A DNA stretch of 64,000 nt from Naegleria gruberi (lineage: Eukaryota), in assembly GCA_000004985.1 (NCBI GenBank), contig GG738858.1. One strand, given 5' to 3'. Under the pieces are notes generated by a model. It had not been told where the DNA came from, searched no databases, and saw only the letters and a list, made by a program, of their open reading frames with translations. Shown in pieces: positions 20,280 through 61,888 of this stretch. The stretch's first letter is position 1. Each line of letters begins with the position of its first letter. Position numbers and translations under genes: made by a program.

Positions 20280-22077
20280 TTATTTTGAGGATATTTGGAT
20301 TGTGATCTCCTGTCCAGTATTGACATTATTAGTTAATAGTAATTCTACATAATTCTGATGGGATTGTTGGAGAATATTCATTGAATTGCTTGGATATAAT
20401 TTAATGGAAAATCCATTCGGATAATAATATTCTCTATTCAGATAGATAACTGTTGTTTCACTTCGACAATTTTCACTAACTTTGAATGAAAATTTGAAAT
20501 CACTCGAGAGAGGATCGAATTTCATATAGGTTGGATCTCCACAAACAATTGGTACATAAGTTCTACTCAGAGCTTTGACTTTTCTTGTTTGTAATTGTCC
20601 ATTCGCTCCATAAAAACTTTCAATAGTTGGAGGTGAAGCAGCAGTTGTCATATCATTATAATACTTGAATTGCCAATAGGTCCATGATCTCAAATATTGA
20701 TCTGCTAAACTTGTCATCCAATCCAATTCGTACTCACTTTGAGTGAAATTGCTTAAAGCTCCAAATTCAGTCATGAATGCTCCAGTCTATTGTTAAGATT
20801 GTTTCAATGTACTATATATCAAAAGTGTTCTTACCTTTAATCGTTTTACATCTGATTCCTTTGCCACAACAGTGACATCATCATCAATCCTGCATGTAAA
20901 TCTACTCTTTGGGTCTCCAGTTGAGTTGACATCTCCACAATAGATATGATAAGAGTAAACTTGTTTCTCTAAATCTTGAGTGCCAAGAGGAGATTCTTCA
21001 AATCCAGATGAAAGTAGATCAGTAACAGTAGGTTCTATACCAGTTCCAAAACTTAAAGTTACTTATAACACTTACCAAAGAAAACTAAATGATTCGAATT
21101 CACTGAACGAATAGCAGAATATACTTGTTGATAAAGTGGAATTAAATTCTGACGGTCTGCCTTCCCTCTCTGATCCAAAAGTAGTGACAAATCCTCATAA
21201 ATATCACCTGGCCATGGCTCATTAATAATTCTATTCAGCCATTTAATTTCACACATCATCAATTTACAACAATAGATACTCGTTAATGAATTATTGAACA
21301 ACATATGAAACTCACTCAAGTCCTAAAACATTTTCCTCATCCTTAAAATAATTTGCAGCAACTTTCCAAAAATTTACAAATGAATCCCTTAAACCATTTA
21401 CATTATTATAAAAGTTTTGGAATGCATTTGAGGCACCCTGAGTCAAATAATAGATAAAGAATGGTTCTTTCAAACAATCTTGAATAATTGGAGCACCAGT
21501 TGTTTGATTAATTCTCAAATGAATACTTTCGAATGGAAATGGAAAAGGTTGAGGTGATTTATATTGAACAGCCCATCTAGGAAACCCCTCTCCACAAAAC
21601 AGATCACTCATCACATCTTGATGAACATCCAGAATAATCATGATATCATACTGTTGTGCATTTCTAATAATTTCCTTTAGTTTCGAAAGATATTTGTAAT
21701 CATATTGATTTCTAATAGGTTCTGTTCCTTGCCATGAAAGCATCAATCTAATCACATTAAATCCCCAATCCTTTAAATTCTGAAAATCAACATTAGTCAA
21801 TGAAGTATTCGAATTGTAATTATACAAATCAGGATAAAAAGGATAAACCTTGTAAACTGCATTCACACTATTTTCCATATGATCAATTTTTCTGATAAAT
21901 CCATTGATTAACATACCCATGGAATATTCTTGTCCTATTCAATCCATCAATAAATTGTTGATTGACCTTGTTAACTTGAACGAAACCATTCGCATTCACA
22001 ACCATGCAATCAATCATCATGACAAGTGTCATCATGAACAGAAGAACCGTTTGATTCTTCAATATTAGTTGCGACAT
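20280..22077 (-). CDS. Secreted glycoside hydrolase family 5 enzyme, endoglycoceramidase-like
   Basis: Five exons (minus strand) at ~22077..21917, 21867..21316, 21230..21076, 21034..20835 and 20786..20280, with introns of 49, 85, 41 and 48 nt. There is a signal peptide MSQLILKNQTVLLFMMTLVMMIDCMVVNA. The splices restore FHG|VNAVYKVYPFYPD, GFNVIRLMLSW...DVHQD, the acid/base motif VLGLE|IINEPWPGDIY, VFF|EP and the nucleophile MTEFG. Confidence 0.75.
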
Positions 22078-57720: not shown

Positions 57721-58875
57721 TTAGAGTTGGAGAGTCTTTGGTTGTTCCCATGGGAATTCGCTTCTACCAAAGTGACCATAAGCAGCAGTTGGTGAGTAGA
57801 TTGGGTTCATCAAGTTCAAATCCTTAATGATGTGATATGGTCTCAAATCAAAGTTCTTATTGACAATAGCCAAAATATCAGCATCAGTCTTACCGTTCAA
57901 AGCAGTACCATAGGTATCAACGTGAACAGACAATGGGTGAGCAATACCAATAGCATAGGCAACTTGAACCAAACATCTCTTAGCCAAACCAGCAGCAACG
58001 ACGGACTTAGCAACCCATCTTGCAGCATAAGAAGCAGATCTATCGACCTTAGATGGATCCTTACCAGAGAAAGCACCACCACCGTGAGCACCCCAACCAC
58101 CATAAGTATCAACAATAATCTTTCTACCAGTAAGACCAGCATCACCTTGTGGACCTCCGATAACGAATCTTCCAGATGGGTTAAGATGGTAAATAGTAGC
58201 ATCATCCAACAAATTGGCTGGAATAACTGGAACAATGACGTGTTCCTTCAATGACTTTTGGATTTCTTCGTTGGAAACAACTTCGTCGTGTTGAGTAGAA
58301 ATCAAGAGGGTAGAAACTCTCTTTGGAGTGAGGTTACCACCTTCCTTAACATATTCAACGGTGACTTGAGTCTTACCGTCAGGTCTCAACCATGGGAGAG
58401 TACCATTCTTTCTGACTTCAGTAAGTCTAGCAGCCAACTTGGAGGCCAACAAGTGAGACAATGGCATCAATTCTGGAGTTTCATCAGAAGCATAACCGAA
58501 CATGAGACCTTGATCACCAGCACCTAATTCTTCTTCAGTACGACCAACGTGGACACCACCAGCAATATCAGGTGATTGTTGTTCAATAGCAACCAAAACG
58601 TTACAAGTCTTATAATCGAAACCCTTGCTTGAGTCATCGAAACCAATCTTCTTGACAGCTTCTCTGACAATCTTTTGGAAGTCCAAAATAGCCTTGGTGG
58701 TAATTTCACCGAAAACCAAGATCATACCAGTCTTACAACAGGTTTCACAAGCAACCTTGGAGTATGGATCAAGAGCCAAACAAGCATCGAGGACAGCATC
58801 AGAGATTTGGTCGCAAATCTTATCTGGGTGACCTTCAGTAACAGATTCTGAGGAGAAGTGGAAAGTTTCAGGCAT
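57721..58875 (-). CDS. S-adenosylmethionine synthetase
   Basis: 384 aa intronless protein. Near full-length colinearity with MAT: [31 protein letters not shown], the P-loop-like [16 protein letters not shown] and [12 protein letters not shown]. Codon usage marks it as highly expressed. Confidence 0.95.
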
Positions 58876-59475: not shown

Positions 59476-60093
59476 ATGGGATTTGAATTTAGAAGATTTA
59501 AACCACTCACTTCCGAAGAGTTTCATCACAACTTTACTGAATATCAAAAAATGGAAGAGAAAAATGATGTGTATTTAATTGTTGTGGATAAGGAGGGAAA
59601 TAGTGTTATTCCCGAAACTATTGGAATTAAACTTGCTTACATGTCACAATTTGAAATTAAAATTCGTAAAAAGAGAAAGAAATCTGGCATTGAAAAATGG
59701 AAGAAAATTCACTGTTTTTCAGAGAAGGTTGATTTATCTGATCAGGATAATCTACTCAAGAGTATAGAGAACCAATTAAAGATGAATCAAGTTTCGGATC
59801 TGGCACTCAGTTCAAATCATCACAGGGTTGTCTCAGCTAAAACTTGTAAAATTAGAAGAAATTATAGAAATTATGAGATTGCTTTCTTTTCATTGAAATT
59901 TGAGGATATGAACGAAACTCTTTATTTTAAATCAGTAAATATTGAGGGAGAGAAAAAGTTTAAAAAAATTGATAAGCAACTAGTTGAAAAGGATCTACCA
60001 CTCTCATCTCAGGATGCTCAGGTTTTAACTTGTGGTTATCCAGAATTGCTTTTAAGGAAATATTTGAGTGTAAAATCAAATATTCTAAATTAA
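59476..60093 (+). CDS. Hypothetical protein, 205 aa
   Basis: ATG-start ORF. Its stop overlaps the NMD3 stop in a TTAA palindrome. Confidence 0.4.
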   Translation: MGFEFRRFKPLTSEEFHHNFTEYQKMEEKNDVYLIVVDKEGNSVIPETIGIKLAYMSQFEIKIRKKRKKSGIEKWKKIHCFSEKVDLSDQDNLLKSIENQLKMNQVSDLALSSNHHRVVSAKTCKIRRNYRNYEIAFFSLKFEDMNETLYFKSVNIEGEKKFKKIDKQLVEKDLPLSSQDAQVLTCGYPELLLRKYLSVKSNILN

Positions 60094-61540
60094 ATAGTCC
60101 AAGCTTCCAATAATTCCTCAAGTCTAACTCTAGGATTCTTTCCATCACTATCAAATTTAATCTTACTTGCAATAGAACCAGAATTTTCATGTTTGAACAA
60201 CATGACTTTGGATCTCATATCTTGATCTTCTTCAAGATCATTCAAGAATGCATCATAATCATTTCCTTCAGGGTCCATACAGAAATGGTGTAACTTCCAA
60301 ATTCTTTGAGTTTCCCATTCATACTTCTTTTTAACAATAATAACATCTGGTAAAACAAGTTTCTTGTAACTTGCAAGGTCATCACTATTGAGATTAGCAT
60401 TCTTCAAATCATATCCATAAACAGTATCTCCAACTTCTAGCAATTGAGTAATGTGACAGAATGTTTGAACATCTGGAGCAACACCTAATTCTGATGTCTT
60501 GACAAGAGACACTTCACTGAGTTGGAATCTGCCAGCTTGAGCAGAAATTGGCCTTCCTTTTTGATTCTTTTTCACCTCAATATCATTGATAGTATATTCA
60601 GCAAGTTGGGTAACTGACAATAGAGCTCTAAATGGTGATTGGAAATAGTTTTGAGCAGTAATTTCAAAATCTATAATTTTTCGTATTAATTGATATTTGA
60701 ATAATTTAAAACATACTCTTGAGTGTGTATGGATCAATGAAGAATAAGCTATTTGTCACCTTATAACAAATAACAAGAGGACTATTTTCAAATTTCAGAA
60801 ATCAATTAAAATTGATTAAATACATACCCAATTTGTCCACTACTGTTAAATAATCTTTGTGGTAAACAAACCAAATCTCCTACACAAATTGGAGCTATTT
60901 CAATGAAATATTGCTCATTGTGTTCAGTTGTAGGTCCTTCCAATGATGATGCCCCTCCAACAGCACCAATTCCTCCTCCTAATTTACCTTTTTGGAATGC
61001 ACCTGTCATTACTGACTTATTTTCCAAATCTCTTATTGGCATTAAATTATTGATTAATTTGATAAACTTGATGACATTTGAACCTTCTTCTTGTGATTGA
61101 TTTTCTCCACCTCCTTCTTTTTGCATTTCCTCGTTCAATTCAGAATAGGCATTTGGTTTATAATAAATATCAAAACCATGAGCAACTTTTTCAAAATGTA
61201 AATGTGGGAATTTTCTTGTAATTTGATGTTTTAACATTAATTGTTCAAAGAAGAATAAATTTCTTTCGTGAGATATCTTTTGACGAATTTGTACTACCGG
61301 CTTATCGGAAGAGTCAACAGTAACCTTCTTCTTTTTCTGATTAACACGATTGGCCTTCTTTCTCTTTTTTGAAGTGAAAGCTTGTTCTTGATAATTATTA
61401 CCTTCATGTACTTCAGTATCTTCAAATTCTGAAATATTCATCATGTCCACATTCTTTCTCTTTTGAGTGTTTGCCTTTTCCGATGGCTGTTTCTTGGTTG
61501 GTGGTTTTTTGTGGCCTTTACCAGTTGCTTTTTGTCTCAT
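60090..61540 (-). CDS. NMD3-family 60S export adaptor homolog lacking the N-terminal Cys4 zinc-finger domain
   Basis: Three exons (minus strand) at ~61540..60828, 60748..60717 and 60670..60090, with introns of 79 and 46 nt (GTATGT donors). It aligns colinearly with the NMD3 middle and C-terminal domains: ...VVQIRQKISHERNLFFFEQLMLKHQ...HGFDIYY...IEIAPICVGDLVCL...GQIG|LFFIDPYTLK|NFEITAQNYFQSPF...LGVAPDVQTFCHITQLLEVGDTVYGYDL...PDVIIVKKKYE. The N-terminus is a K-rich 95-aa segment with no CxxC pairs. Confidence 0.65.
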
Positions 61541-61888
61541 GTTTTTTTTTGAAGTTGGTTTTTTGAATTTTTATTATTTTCTATCGATTTTAAAGAGAAT
61601 TGATTCACAAACCACAATAAAAGAGTGTTGCATGGGAGAATAAGATTTTGGAGAGTTTGATATTTTAGAGAATACTTGATTTTCTAATGATGATAGACAA
61701 AGTTAAATTCATGCGTGTCAACAGATGTACCTTGATAGATAATACTCATTCCATTCCTGATATTTTTCACTTTTTGCGATAACTATTCCATGGAAGAAAT
61801 GCAATAGTATTCAAGTTGTGCCAAGAATAAATTCAAGAGAATGAAAGAATATATTAAATAATTATATTATTGTTACAATGGGGTTTGA

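What the first reader, a model, noticed from the sequence alone, without database searches (positions are those of the whole stretch)
60090..61880. NMD3 homolog without the canonical N-terminal zinc-finger domain
The protein aligns colinearly with NMD3 from its middle domain (RQK...FFEQLMLKH...GFDIYY) to the C-terminal OB-like domain and nuclear-export-signal (NES) region. The ~150-residue N-terminal domain, which carries the two conserved CxxC...CxxC zinc-binding clusters in NMD3 (a detail I recall from the family rather than see here), is replaced by a 95-residue Lys-rich segment with no cysteines. The 340 bp upstream (61541-61880) has no coding potential in any frame. Either a distant 5' exon exists, or this organism has a truncated NMD3 whose 60S binding would have to work differently.
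Basis: partly seen in the sequence, partly recalled or inferred. Interest (0 to 1): 0.5.

Follow-up and report, generated by a model that had tools for sequence, protein, structure and literature searches.

The report
Short zinc-finger-less NMD3 in Naegleria
Naegleria gruberi and its relatives carry a genuine, conserved, shortened version of the ribosome-export protein NMD3 that lacks the zinc-finger module found in this protein from archaea to humans; it is probably an extra, specialised copy rather than the cell's only NMD3.

Summary
The gene lies at 60090-61540 on the minus strand and has 3 exons and two 46-nt introns. Its product is identical to N. gruberi XP_002679393.1. The 452-aa protein matches yeast Nmd3 only from residue 156 onward (eL22-like, SH3 and OB domains).

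In place of the ZnF1/eL31-like/ZnF2 module it has an 80-residue Lys-rich, Cys-free tail that is predicted to be disordered. There is no hidden exon. The upstream 348 bp is non-coding. An N-domain HMM finds nothing in the window or in 96 kb around seven orthologous loci. Polyadenylated mRNAs of two distant relatives have in-frame stops just upstream of the ATG.

The short form defines an old single clade: Naegleria species, Willaertia and at least six environmental lineages. Its tail is under purifying selection. All members end in a class-1a nuclear export signal (NES) and carry clusters resembling nuclear localisation signals (NLS) in the tail. They keep the H38 rRNA contacts but have lost the residues that mask the peptidyl-transferase centre.

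The "truncated sole NMD3" reading is doubtful. A published survey rates N. gruberi NMD3 as category 1 (at least 80% coverage, at least 60% similarity). The short form reaches only 66% and 47%. A canonical copy therefore probably exists elsewhere in the genome, which I could not verify directly. Verdict: a new variant of a known family, of moderate interest.

The parts
60090..61540 (-). Complete short NMD3-family gene (ATG 61540-61538, stop TAA 60092-60090), encoding a 452-aa product
   Evidence: Spliced translation. Identical to XP_002679393.1 / NAEGRDRAFT_65564.
60828..61540 (-). Exon 1 (codons 1-237 plus 2 nt)
   Evidence: The GT donor follows 60828.
60782..60827 (-). Intron 1, 46 nt, GTATGT...AATAG
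   Evidence: Splicing restores the conserved GQIGPLVICYKVTNS segment shared with orthologs.
60717..60781 (-). Exon 2 (65 nt)
60671..60716 (-). Intron 2, 46 nt, GTATGT...TATAG
60090..60670 (-). Exon 3, including the stop codon
61304..61540 (-). N-terminal tail, residues 1-79: Lys/Arg-rich (21 K/R), Cys-free, predicted disordered. It replaces the ZnF1/eL31-like/ZnF2 module.
   Evidence: No Pfam match. No relation to the canonical N-domain by hhalign, probability 0.09%. pLDDT <50 in the ortholog model. pN 0.197 against pS 0.85 versus N. lovaniensis, which indicates purifying selection.
61382..61405 (-). Conserved tail motif EGNNYQEQ (residues 46-53). 'GNN' is invariant in 7 of 7 aligned tails.
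   Evidence: Alignment A4. The function is unknown.
61325..61369 (-). NLS-like basic clusters KKRKK (58-62) and QKKKK (68-72)
   Evidence: K[KR]x[KR] clusters occur in the tails of all 11 short forms. The canonical C-terminal basic NLS cluster is shortened in short forms.
60890..61303 (-). eL22-like alpha/beta domain (residues 80-217). It has lineage-specific low-complexity inserts at 131-153 and 178-211, the latter in the beta4-5 hairpin.
   Evidence: Aligns to yeast 156-250. The Foldseek match to Nmd3 chains is to the whole model, not this domain alone. R169 and Q176 equivalents are kept; K204, Y240 and F242 equivalents are lost.
60654..60889 (-). SH3 domain (residues 218-265). The coordinates span both introns.
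   Evidence: Pfam PF21193, E 8.9e-17.
60327..60605 (-). OB-fold domain (residues 282-374)
   Evidence: Pfam PF21192, E 4.8e-18.
60093..60122 (-). C-terminal class-1a NES-like motif LEELLEAWTI, the last ten residues
   Evidence: Aligns to the yeast NES region INIDELLDEL (PMC2174350). The pattern is present at the extreme C-terminus of 11 of 11 short forms, against 1.9% of shuffles.
61541..61888 (-). Non-coding intergenic and promoter region between the upstream hydrolase-like gene and the ATG
   Evidence: Stops in all frames. 47% identity to the N. lovaniensis counterpart, which is chance level. No N-domain HMM hit.

Best explanation
This is a complete, functional, lineage-specific short member of the NMD3 family. 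The protein has five parts. First, an 80-residue basic, disordered tail with NLS-like clusters and a conserved EGNNY motif. Then the eL22-like, SH3 and OB domains of NMD3. Last, a leucine-rich NES as its final ten residues. The ZnF1/eL31-like/ZnF2 module (yeast residues 16-154) is absent. The cut lies exactly at the flexible pivot between the eL31-like and eL22-like domains. In yeast that module anchors Nmd3 to the GTPase Lsg1 and to eIF6. The aromatic and basic residues with which the canonical beta4-5 hairpin masks A2971 in the peptidyl-transferase centre are also gone.

The form arose once, in an ancestor of Naegleria, Willaertia and several uncultured relatives, and has been kept under purifying selection. 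It most likely coexists with a canonical NMD3 and is therefore a diverged paralog.

Proposed mechanism (inferred, not shown): the protein is imported through the tail NLS. It binds the E-site / L1-stalk / H38 face of nuclear pre-60S, as the equivalent ~250 residues of Nmd3 do on nuclear and NPC-trapped particles. It recruits Crm1 through the terminal NES. It then leaves without the Lsg1/eIF6-coupled checkpoint at the peptidyl-transferase centre. That makes it an export-only or accessory 60S adaptor, and cytoplasmic proofreading would remain with the canonical protein.
For: Gene model and identity.

Domain content. The AF2 model of the N. fowleri ortholog has pLDDT 79. Its only significant PDB matches are 14 Nmd3/NMD3 chains, with target-normalised TM up to 0.86 against the ~245-255-residue chains deposited for NPC-trapped, early cytoplasmic and human pre-60S states.

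Domain boundaries and the roles of the missing module: PMC6579518.

No hidden exon. The N-domain HMM detects fragments that keep only the last ~20-40 residues of the domain, yet finds nothing in the window or in 96 kb of seven orthologous loci. Willaertia and P0007 have single-exon genes in different genomic contexts, and the P0007 upstream neighbour is only 40 bp away. Polyadenylated mRNA contigs of P0147, and contigs of P0004/5, have in-frame stops upstream of the ATG.

Conservation. Tail pN is 0.197 and the rest of exon 1 is 0.194, with pS about 0.8. Short forms form one clade in 184 of 200 NJ bootstraps.

Shuttling signals: with PMC2174350.

Contact residues.

Paralog status. PMC3032688 Table 2 gives N. 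gruberi category 1. The short form reaches only 66% coverage and 47% positives, whereas a canonical control reaches 92-94% and 62-66%. The short form is also more divergent from yeast (27% identity) than the canonical plant control is from yeast or human (43-47%).
Against: No canonical heterolobosean NMD3 sequence was actually seen. All the searches that could have shown one were either list-limited or word-index-limited, and the window's own genome is hidden from the tools. Ebersberger et al. (PMC3919561 supplement) list no NMD3 co-ortholog count above 1 for N. gruberi. Their pipeline may simply reject divergent paralogs. Nothing here shows ribosome binding, shuttling or expression in N. gruberi itself. 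The alignment around the beta4-5 hairpin is in a variable region.
Confidence: 0.6

Rival explanations
1. This is the sole NMD3 ortholog, with domain loss. Heteroloboseans would have no canonical NMD3, and this short protein would carry out all 60S export and maturation functions without an Lsg1/eIF6 anchor.
For: It is the only NMD3-family protein retrieved from N. fowleri, N. lovaniensis and Willaertia in two word-indexed searches. No heterolobosean canonical protein was recognised among the top 150 exhaustive HMMER hits. UniRef names the N. fowleri protein NMD3. Ebersberger et al. list no more than one N. gruberi co-ortholog. The NES and the H38/E-site elements are retained.
Against: PMC3032688 Table 2 rates N. 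gruberi NMD3 category 1 with both human and yeast queries, which the short form cannot reach. The residues that mask the peptidyl-transferase centre are conserved in 41-51 of 52 canonical proteins but lost here. Identity to yeast is unusually low (27%). The negative searches were insensitive or truncated: thousands of canonical NMD3s exist, yet one search returned only four.
Confidence: 0.25
2. Gene fission. The ZnF/eL31-like module would be encoded by a separate gene elsewhere and act in trans with this protein.
For: The break lies exactly at the domain boundary and flexible pivot. A stand-alone N-domain gene could not be excluded, because only the best 120 of 1026 hits were visible.
Against: There is no N-domain coding sequence within +/-8-10 kb in seven lineages or in the 64-kb window. 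An unlinked anchor domain would lose its tethering role. The tail is a conserved replacement with its own motifs.
Confidence: 0.05
3. Annotation artefact. The true gene would have an undetected 5' exon encoding the Cys4 domain, or the ATG at 61540 would not be the real start.
For: No N. gruberi transcript data were available here.
Against: The upstream 348 bp has stops in all frames and abuts the previous gene. The ATG and the tail are conserved in more than ten orthologs under purifying selection. Intron-less orthologs occur in different genomic contexts. Complete poly(A) mRNAs of relatives carry in-frame upstream stops. The HMM scans are negative.
Confidence: 0.02
4. A decaying, non-functional remnant of a duplicated NMD3.
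For: A universally conserved module and several contact residues have been lost.
Against: The ORF is intact in all lineages and pN/pS is about 0.23 in both tail and core. A perfectly conserved terminal NES is present in 11 of 11 members. The mRNA is expressed and polyadenylated in relatives. The clade's internal divergence of 0.95 substitutions per site shows long-term retention.
Confidence: 0.02

Closest known systems
Canonical eukaryotic NMD3 (yeast Nmd3, human NMD3), the Crm1-dependent 60S export adaptor
   Same: Colinear eL22-like, SH3 and OB domains (phmmer E 3.5e-41; Foldseek probability 1.0). The helix alpha1 H38 contacts (R169, Q176) and Y402 are conserved. The C-terminal leucine-rich NES lies at the equivalent position.
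   Different: It lacks ZnF1, the eL31-like domain and ZnF2 (all four CxxC motifs), and with them the Lsg1 contact (W104) and the eIF6 'click-lock'. The A2971-masking residues K204, Y240 and F242 are lost. The C-terminal basic NLS cluster is halved, and NLS-like clusters sit in a new N-terminal tail instead. The protein ends exactly at the NES.
Archaeal NMD3
   Same: Same family. Both differ from the eukaryotic canonical protein by lacking one block of it.
   Different: The pattern is reversed. Archaeal proteins keep the Zn-binding N-domain but lack the NLS and NES (PMC2174350). The Naegleria short form keeps NES and NLS-type signals but lacks the Zn domain.
eIF5A (E-site factor that the Nmd3 SH3+OB pair mimics)
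   Same: An SH3-like plus OB pair that occupies the E site next to the L1 stalk (titles of PDB 5t62/5t6r; PMC6579518). With the N-module gone, the short form is proportionally closer to an E/P-site ligand.
   Different: There is no hypusine loop. It has an extra eL22-like domain, an NES and a basic tail. Sequence homology is to NMD3, not to eIF5A.
Nmd3 as modelled on nuclear, NPC-trapped and early cytoplasmic pre-60S particles (e.g. 8hfr, 6n8k, 7z34, 6lu8)
   Same: Those deposited chains hold only ~245-255 residues, matching the eL22-like+SH3+OB part by aligned length and TM. The short-form model covers them with TM 0.81-0.86.
   Different: In those organisms the N-module exists but is simply not modelled at that stage. 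Here it is not encoded.

Membership tests
NMD3 family (Pfam PF04981 / PF21193 / PF21192; 60S ribosomal export protein) | N-terminal module with four CxxC motifs (two treble-clef zinc fingers) grafted on an eL31-like domain | tested here: not met
   There are 0 Cys in residues 1-218. No PF04981 hit at E<=0.1. The 40-sequence N-domain HMM gives no hit to any short form. hhalign of the tail against the N-domain gives probability 0.09%.
NMD3 family | eL22-like alpha/beta domain beginning with the VQ(I/V)RQK...EQL(I/M)LKH helix | tested here: met
   Aligned to yeast 156-203 and over 156-498 by BLASTP. pLDDT is above 90 over most of this region in the ortholog model, and Foldseek matches Nmd3 chains.
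NMD3 family | SH3 domain (PF21193) | tested here: met
   E 8.9e-17, 61.5 bits against a cutoff of 27.
NMD3 family | OB-fold domain (PF21192) | tested here: met
   E 4.8e-18, 65.7 bits against a cutoff of 27.
NMD3 family (eukaryotic) | C-terminal leucine-rich NES recognised by Crm1 | tested here: inconclusive
   The sequence pattern LEELLEAWTI fits the class-1a consensus, aligns to the yeast NES and is conserved in 11 of 11 short forms. Crm1 binding is not testable here.
NMD3 family (eukaryotic) | Basic NLS cluster between the OB domain and the acidic tail (yeast aa 399-419) | tested here: not met
   The linker is a median 29.5 aa with 6.5 K/R in short forms, against 46 aa with 12 K/R in 52 canonical proteins. 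Basic clusters lie in the N-tail instead.
NMD3 family | Residues of the beta4-5 hairpin and alpha2 that hold A2971 closed in the peptidyl-transferase centre (K204, Y240, F242) | tested here: not met
   K/R in 43 of 52, Y/F in 41 of 52 and aromatic in 49 of 52 canonical proteins. Short forms have G/S/T/P/A, H/D/E/gap and E/D/V/R/N at these positions. Caveat: this region is variable in the alignment.
NMD3 family | Binding to pre-60S, and Lsg1- and uL16-dependent release | not testable with these tools
   This needs biochemistry or cryo-EM.
Orthology to the single-copy NMD3 of other eukaryotes | It is the only NMD3-family gene in the genome | tested here: inconclusive
   No second gene was seen, but those searches were insensitive or truncated. 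PMC3032688 Table 2 implies a canonical N. gruberi NMD3.

The most novel reading that the evidence does not exclude
Heteroloboseans have no canonical NMD3, and this short protein is their only 60S export adaptor. A free-living eukaryote would then export and mature its large ribosomal subunit without the archaea-to-human zinc-finger/eL31-like module, without the Nmd3-Lsg1-eIF6 anchor, and without Nmd3 masking of the peptidyl-transferase centre. That would imply a differently wired final quality-control step.
Probability: 0.2. Interest if true: 0.7.

Novelty: new variant of a known kind. Interest (0 to 1): 0.42.

Why it matters
The zinc-finger N-domain is found in NMD3 from archaea to eukaryotes. 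In current cryo-EM models it is the handle that ties Nmd3 to Lsg1 and eIF6 until the peptidyl-transferase centre is complete.

This short form is a natural separation-of-function variant. It is conserved across a deep protist clade. It keeps only the part of NMD3 that is modelled on nuclear and pore-trapped pre-60S particles, plus the shuttling signals. That offers a test of which NMD3 functions (loading, export, or cytoplasmic proofreading and release) need the N-module.

If it is a paralog, it is an undescribed accessory 60S ligand or export adaptor. If it is the only copy, late 60S maturation in Heterolobosea must be wired differently. I found no paper describing it; the databases call it "predicted protein" or auto-name it NMD3.

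Tried and rejected
1. Hidden exon. Six-frame tblastn and HMM scans with canonical N-domains found only the RQK junction, over the whole 64-kb window and 96 kb of seven orthologous loci. A weak hit at 20934-21047 lies inside an unrelated hydrolase-like gene.

2. The tail as a decayed Zn domain. MAFFT suggested that EGNNY lines up with 'QKEV..GA.LQQ', but hhalign rejected it with probability 0.09%. The tail has no Pfam match.

3. Other lineages with short forms. All other top-150 hits with an early junction keep ZnF2 or eL31-like pieces, or begin at or after the junction, so they are fragments.

4. Direct search for a heterolobosean canonical NMD3 or a stand-alone N-domain:
- The N-domain profile search listed only the best 120 of 1026 hits, all <=257 aa.
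- The contigs of the best unnamed canonical hits, P0152 and P0153, come from unrelated samples.
- Ten AT-biased canonical hits were rotifer, foraminiferan, arachnid, fungal or unnamed.
- The short-form profile in the word-indexed database gave 16 hits and even missed some of its own query members.
- afdb50 was unavailable.
Its closest loci are streptophyte.

5. Literature. No paper mentions this locus or a Zn-less NMD3. The supplements of PMC3032688 and PMC3919561 are truncated and gave no accession. PMC5709506 was a false hit.

6. The first AF2 run, on 6 sequences, was unusable at pLDDT 44.

Full report
**What is there.** The window is Naegleria gruberi. The neighbouring ORF 57721-58875(-) is exactly S-adenosylmethionine synthase XP_002679392.1 / NAEGRDRAFT_36068. 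The flagged gene lies on the minus strand. Its exons are 61540-60828, 60781-60717 and 60670-60090, separated by two 46-nt GTATGT...AG introns, and they encode 452 aa. The spliced product is identical to XP_002679393.1 / NAEGRDRAFT_65564 / UniProt D2V949, 'predicted protein', so the gene model is independently confirmed. The tools appear to hide the window's own genome, because N. gruberi never appears among homology hits.

**Check of the observation.** Pfam detects NMD_SH3 (residues 218-265, E 8.9e-17) and NMD3_OB (282-374, E 4.8e-18), but not the N-terminal NMD3 model. phmmer against PDB sequences aligns the protein to yeast Nmd3 with E 3.5e-41, starting at yeast residue 156 = query residue 80. 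BLASTP gives yeast 156-498 and human 154-485. Residues 1-79 hold 21 K/R and no Cys, and the first Cys is residue 219. The 348 bp upstream (61541-61888) has stops in every frame and abuts the stop codon of the preceding hydrolase-like gene. The replaced segment is about 80 residues rather than 95.

**What exactly is missing.** Kargas et al. 2019 (PMC6579518) divide yeast Nmd3 into these parts:
- ZnF1: residues 16-42
- eL31-like domain carrying ZnF2: 43-154
- eL22-like domain: 155-250
- SH3: 251-310
- OB: 311-400

The N-terminal finger stays bound to eIF6. W104 of the eL31-like domain stacks on Lsg1 R163. A flexible linker between the eL31-like and eL22-like domains is the pivot about which the C-terminal domains swing during release. 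Homology in the Naegleria protein begins exactly at that boundary, so the whole anchor module is absent and nothing else is.

**No hidden exon.**
- Canonical N-domain queries and two HMMs find nothing significant in the 64-kb window or in 96 kb around seven orthologous genes. The best E-value is 0.12. The second HMM, built from 40 sequences, detects fragments that keep only the last ~20-40 residues of the domain.
- N. fowleri and N. lovaniensis have the same gene order: hydrolase-like gene, short NMD3, SAM synthetase.
- Willaertia magna and three environmental relatives have single-exon genes in unrelated genomic contexts. One has a divergent neighbour only 40 bp upstream.
- The relative P0147 is carried on seven or eight independently assembled ~1.35-kb contigs. 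Four of the six examined end in poly(A) tracts. Their 5' UTRs are 21-29 nt and carry an in-frame TAA six codons before the ATG. The P0004/P0005 contigs also have an in-frame upstream stop.
- Between N. gruberi and N. lovaniensis the tail has pN 0.197 and pS 0.85. The rest of exon 1 has pN 0.194 and pS 0.78. The upstream intergenic DNA aligns at 47% identity.

The tail is therefore real coding sequence under the same constraint as the folded domain.

**Distribution.** Short forms occur in N. fowleri (two near-identical loci), N. lovaniensis, W. magna and several unnamed lineages from metagenomes and sequencing runs: P0004/5/6, P0007, P0146-P0149, P0164 and P0169. All have a Met start, a Lys-rich Cys-free tail of 47-100 residues and no N-domain HMM signal. 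Most share a 'GNN' motif (EGNNYQE in Naegleria). Every other hit with an early junction still contains ZnF2 or eL31-like sequence, or starts at or after the junction, and so is a fragment. In an NJ tree of the shared region (143 sequences, 249 columns) the short forms form one clade in 184 of 200 bootstraps. Internal divergence is 0.95 substitutions per site, against 1.15 among the canonical proteins sampled. This points to one ancient origin. hhalign finds no relation between the tail and the canonical N-domain (probability 0.09%), and the tail has no Pfam match.

**Structure.** With a 62-sequence alignment, AlphaFold2 models the N. fowleri ortholog (69% identical) at pLDDT 79 and pTM 0.75. 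The model is confidently folded from about residue 78. The tail (1-69) and two lineage-specific loops are below pLDDT 50. Foldseek against the PDB returns 14 significant hits, all Nmd3/NMD3 chains in pre-60S particles. Target-normalised TM is 0.81-0.86 against the chains of ~245-255 residues deposited for NPC-trapped (8hfr), early cytoplasmic (6n8k), Drg1-bound (7z34) and human pre-60S (6lu8, 6lsr, 6lqm) particles. In other words, the short form corresponds to the part of Nmd3 that is modelled on particles around the export step.

**Functional signatures.**
- *NES.* All 11 full-length short forms end exactly in a class-1a NES pattern (LEELLEAWTI in N. gruberi). Shuffled C-termini show it in 1.9% of cases. 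It aligns with the yeast NES INIDELLDEL (PMC2174350).
- *NLS.* The yeast NLS basic cluster (aa 399-419) corresponds to a shortened, less basic linker: median 29.5 aa with 6.5 K/R, against 46 aa with 12 K/R in canonical proteins. Every tail carries K[KR]x[KR] clusters and is 27% K/R. This suggests, by inference only, that the import signal moved to the N-terminus.
- *rRNA contacts.* Of the contacts listed by Kargas et al., the H38 contacts R169, Q176 and Y402 are kept. The residues that hold A2971 closed in the peptidyl-transferase centre are replaced or deleted. These are K204 (K/R in 43 of 52 canonical), Y240 (Y/F in 41 of 52) and F242 (aromatic in 49 of 52). K253, an SH3 contact with H38 (K/R in 51 of 52), is also lost in 6 of 11 short forms. 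In Naegleria the beta4-5 hairpin carries a Gly-rich insert. The alignment is less certain in this variable loop.

**Ortholog or paralog?** This is the main open point. Serpeloni et al. 2011 (PMC3032688) BLASTed human and yeast NMD3 against the N. gruberi RefSeq proteome and scored category 1 for both. Category 1 means similar length, >=60% similarity and >=80% of the query covered. I counted 34 columns and 34 values, and Ngr is the 32nd. The short form gives 66% coverage and 47% positives, which is category 3 by their rules. A canonical plant control gives 92-94% and 62-66%. The yeast and human sequences used here were recalled from memory; the yeast one is consistent with the PDB alignment.

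The published score therefore implies a second, canonical NMD3 in N. gruberi. Two other facts fit a neofunctionalised paralog. The short form has unusually low identity to yeast (27%), and it has lost residues that are conserved in canonical proteins.

I could not see the second gene. Searches were list-limited, word-index-limited or unavailable. Targeted look-ups and a metagenome scan found only unrelated taxa. Ebersberger et al. list no NMD3 co-ortholog count above 1 for N. gruberi. That is weak counter-evidence, because divergent paralogs may be rejected by their method. My estimates are about 0.7 for a paralog, 0.25 for a sole ortholog with domain loss, and 0.05 for fission.

**Mechanism.**
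- *Shown:* the domain content, the absence of the anchor module, the conservation, the NES and NLS-type motifs, and the loss of the residues that mask the peptidyl-transferase centre.
- *Inferred:* the protein shuttles. It binds nuclear pre-60S across the E/P sites and the closed L1 stalk through the OB, SH3 and eL22-like domains. It recruits Crm1 through the terminal NES. Lacking the Lsg1/eIF6 anchor and the A2971 clamp, it dissociates without the Lsg1-coupled checkpoint. It would then be an export-only or accessory adaptor, with proofreading left to a canonical NMD3.
- *Unexplained:* the conserved EGNNY motif could be a docking motif.

**Novelty and verdict.** No paper in the searchable library describes a zinc-finger-less NMD3 or this locus. 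It is a new variant of a known family. The finding is real, conserved and mechanistically suggestive, but it is probably not the organism's only NMD3. Interest is 0.42, rising to about 0.7 if a whole-genome search shows that no canonical copy exists.

Noticed in passing
window 57721-58875 (-) and 59476-60093 (+); L003 9578-10732; L009 11679-12833: In N. fowleri and N. lovaniensis the SAM synthetase gene is convergent with the short NMD3 and starts ~92 bp after it. In N. gruberi it is on the same strand, 1.2 kb downstream, which indicates a local inversion. The gap holds a 205-aa ORF on the + strand with no Pfam match. Its stop overlaps the NMD3 stop codon by 4 nt.
   Followed up: partly
N. fowleri proteins P0001 / P0141 (FDP41_004599 on a 66.9-kb contig, FDP41_004543 on a 605-kb contig): N. 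fowleri carries two loci encoding >=90%-identical 449-aa short forms. This is either a recent duplication or an assembly haplotig.
   Followed up: no
L003 8001-9486 versus window 60890-61010: The N. lovaniensis gene model has an extra intron right after 'GRLGGG', so its exon 1 codes only 184 aa. In N. gruberi the same Gly-rich beta4-5 loop is a continuous ORF. Either the intron position is polymorphic or the low-complexity stretch was spliced out by the annotation.
   Followed up: no
PMC3032688 Table 2, Ngr column: Rei1/ZNF622, the factor that releases Arx1 in late 60S maturation, is scored 'NC' (no hit) for N. gruberi with both human and yeast queries. This may point to wider rewiring of cytoplasmic 60S maturation in Naegleria.
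   Followed up: no
window 60671-60716 and 60782-60827: Both introns of the gene are exactly 46 nt and begin GTATGT. The upstream hydrolase-like gene has much longer introns (~130 nt), one of which contains AAT/AAC repeat runs.
   Followed up: no
PDB chains (8hfr_vV, 6n8k_v, 7z34_v, 6lu8_3, 6lsr_3, 6lqm_3, 5h4p_w, 5t6r_V): In many deposited pre-60S structures the Nmd3/NMD3 chain holds only ~245-255 residues, so the Zn/eL31-like module is not modelled. This fits its being flexible until Lsg1/eIF6 engagement.
   Followed up: partly
P0010 cluster (482 aa; contigs of 1.9-2.5 kb in NCBI, JGI, ENA and Logan): This is a canonical NMD3 with all four CxxC motifs that ends at '...INLYRVT', without any acidic tail or NES. 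It sits on gene-sized contigs, possibly ciliate nanochromosomes. It would be an NMD3 without an export signal.
   Followed up: no
window 20934-21047 (-): A weak match (E 0.12-0.28) of the NMD3 N-domain profile falls in an intron-like gap between ORFs of a glycoside-hydrolase-like gene (ORFs 20280-20774 and 21059-21920). I judged it a chance match.
   Followed up: yes
L013 1-23: The Logan contig SRR29605815_7181 begins with an Illumina adapter remnant (TCAGACGTGTGCTCTTCCGATCT), an assembly artefact. It does mark the 5' end of the cDNA fragment.
   Followed up: yes
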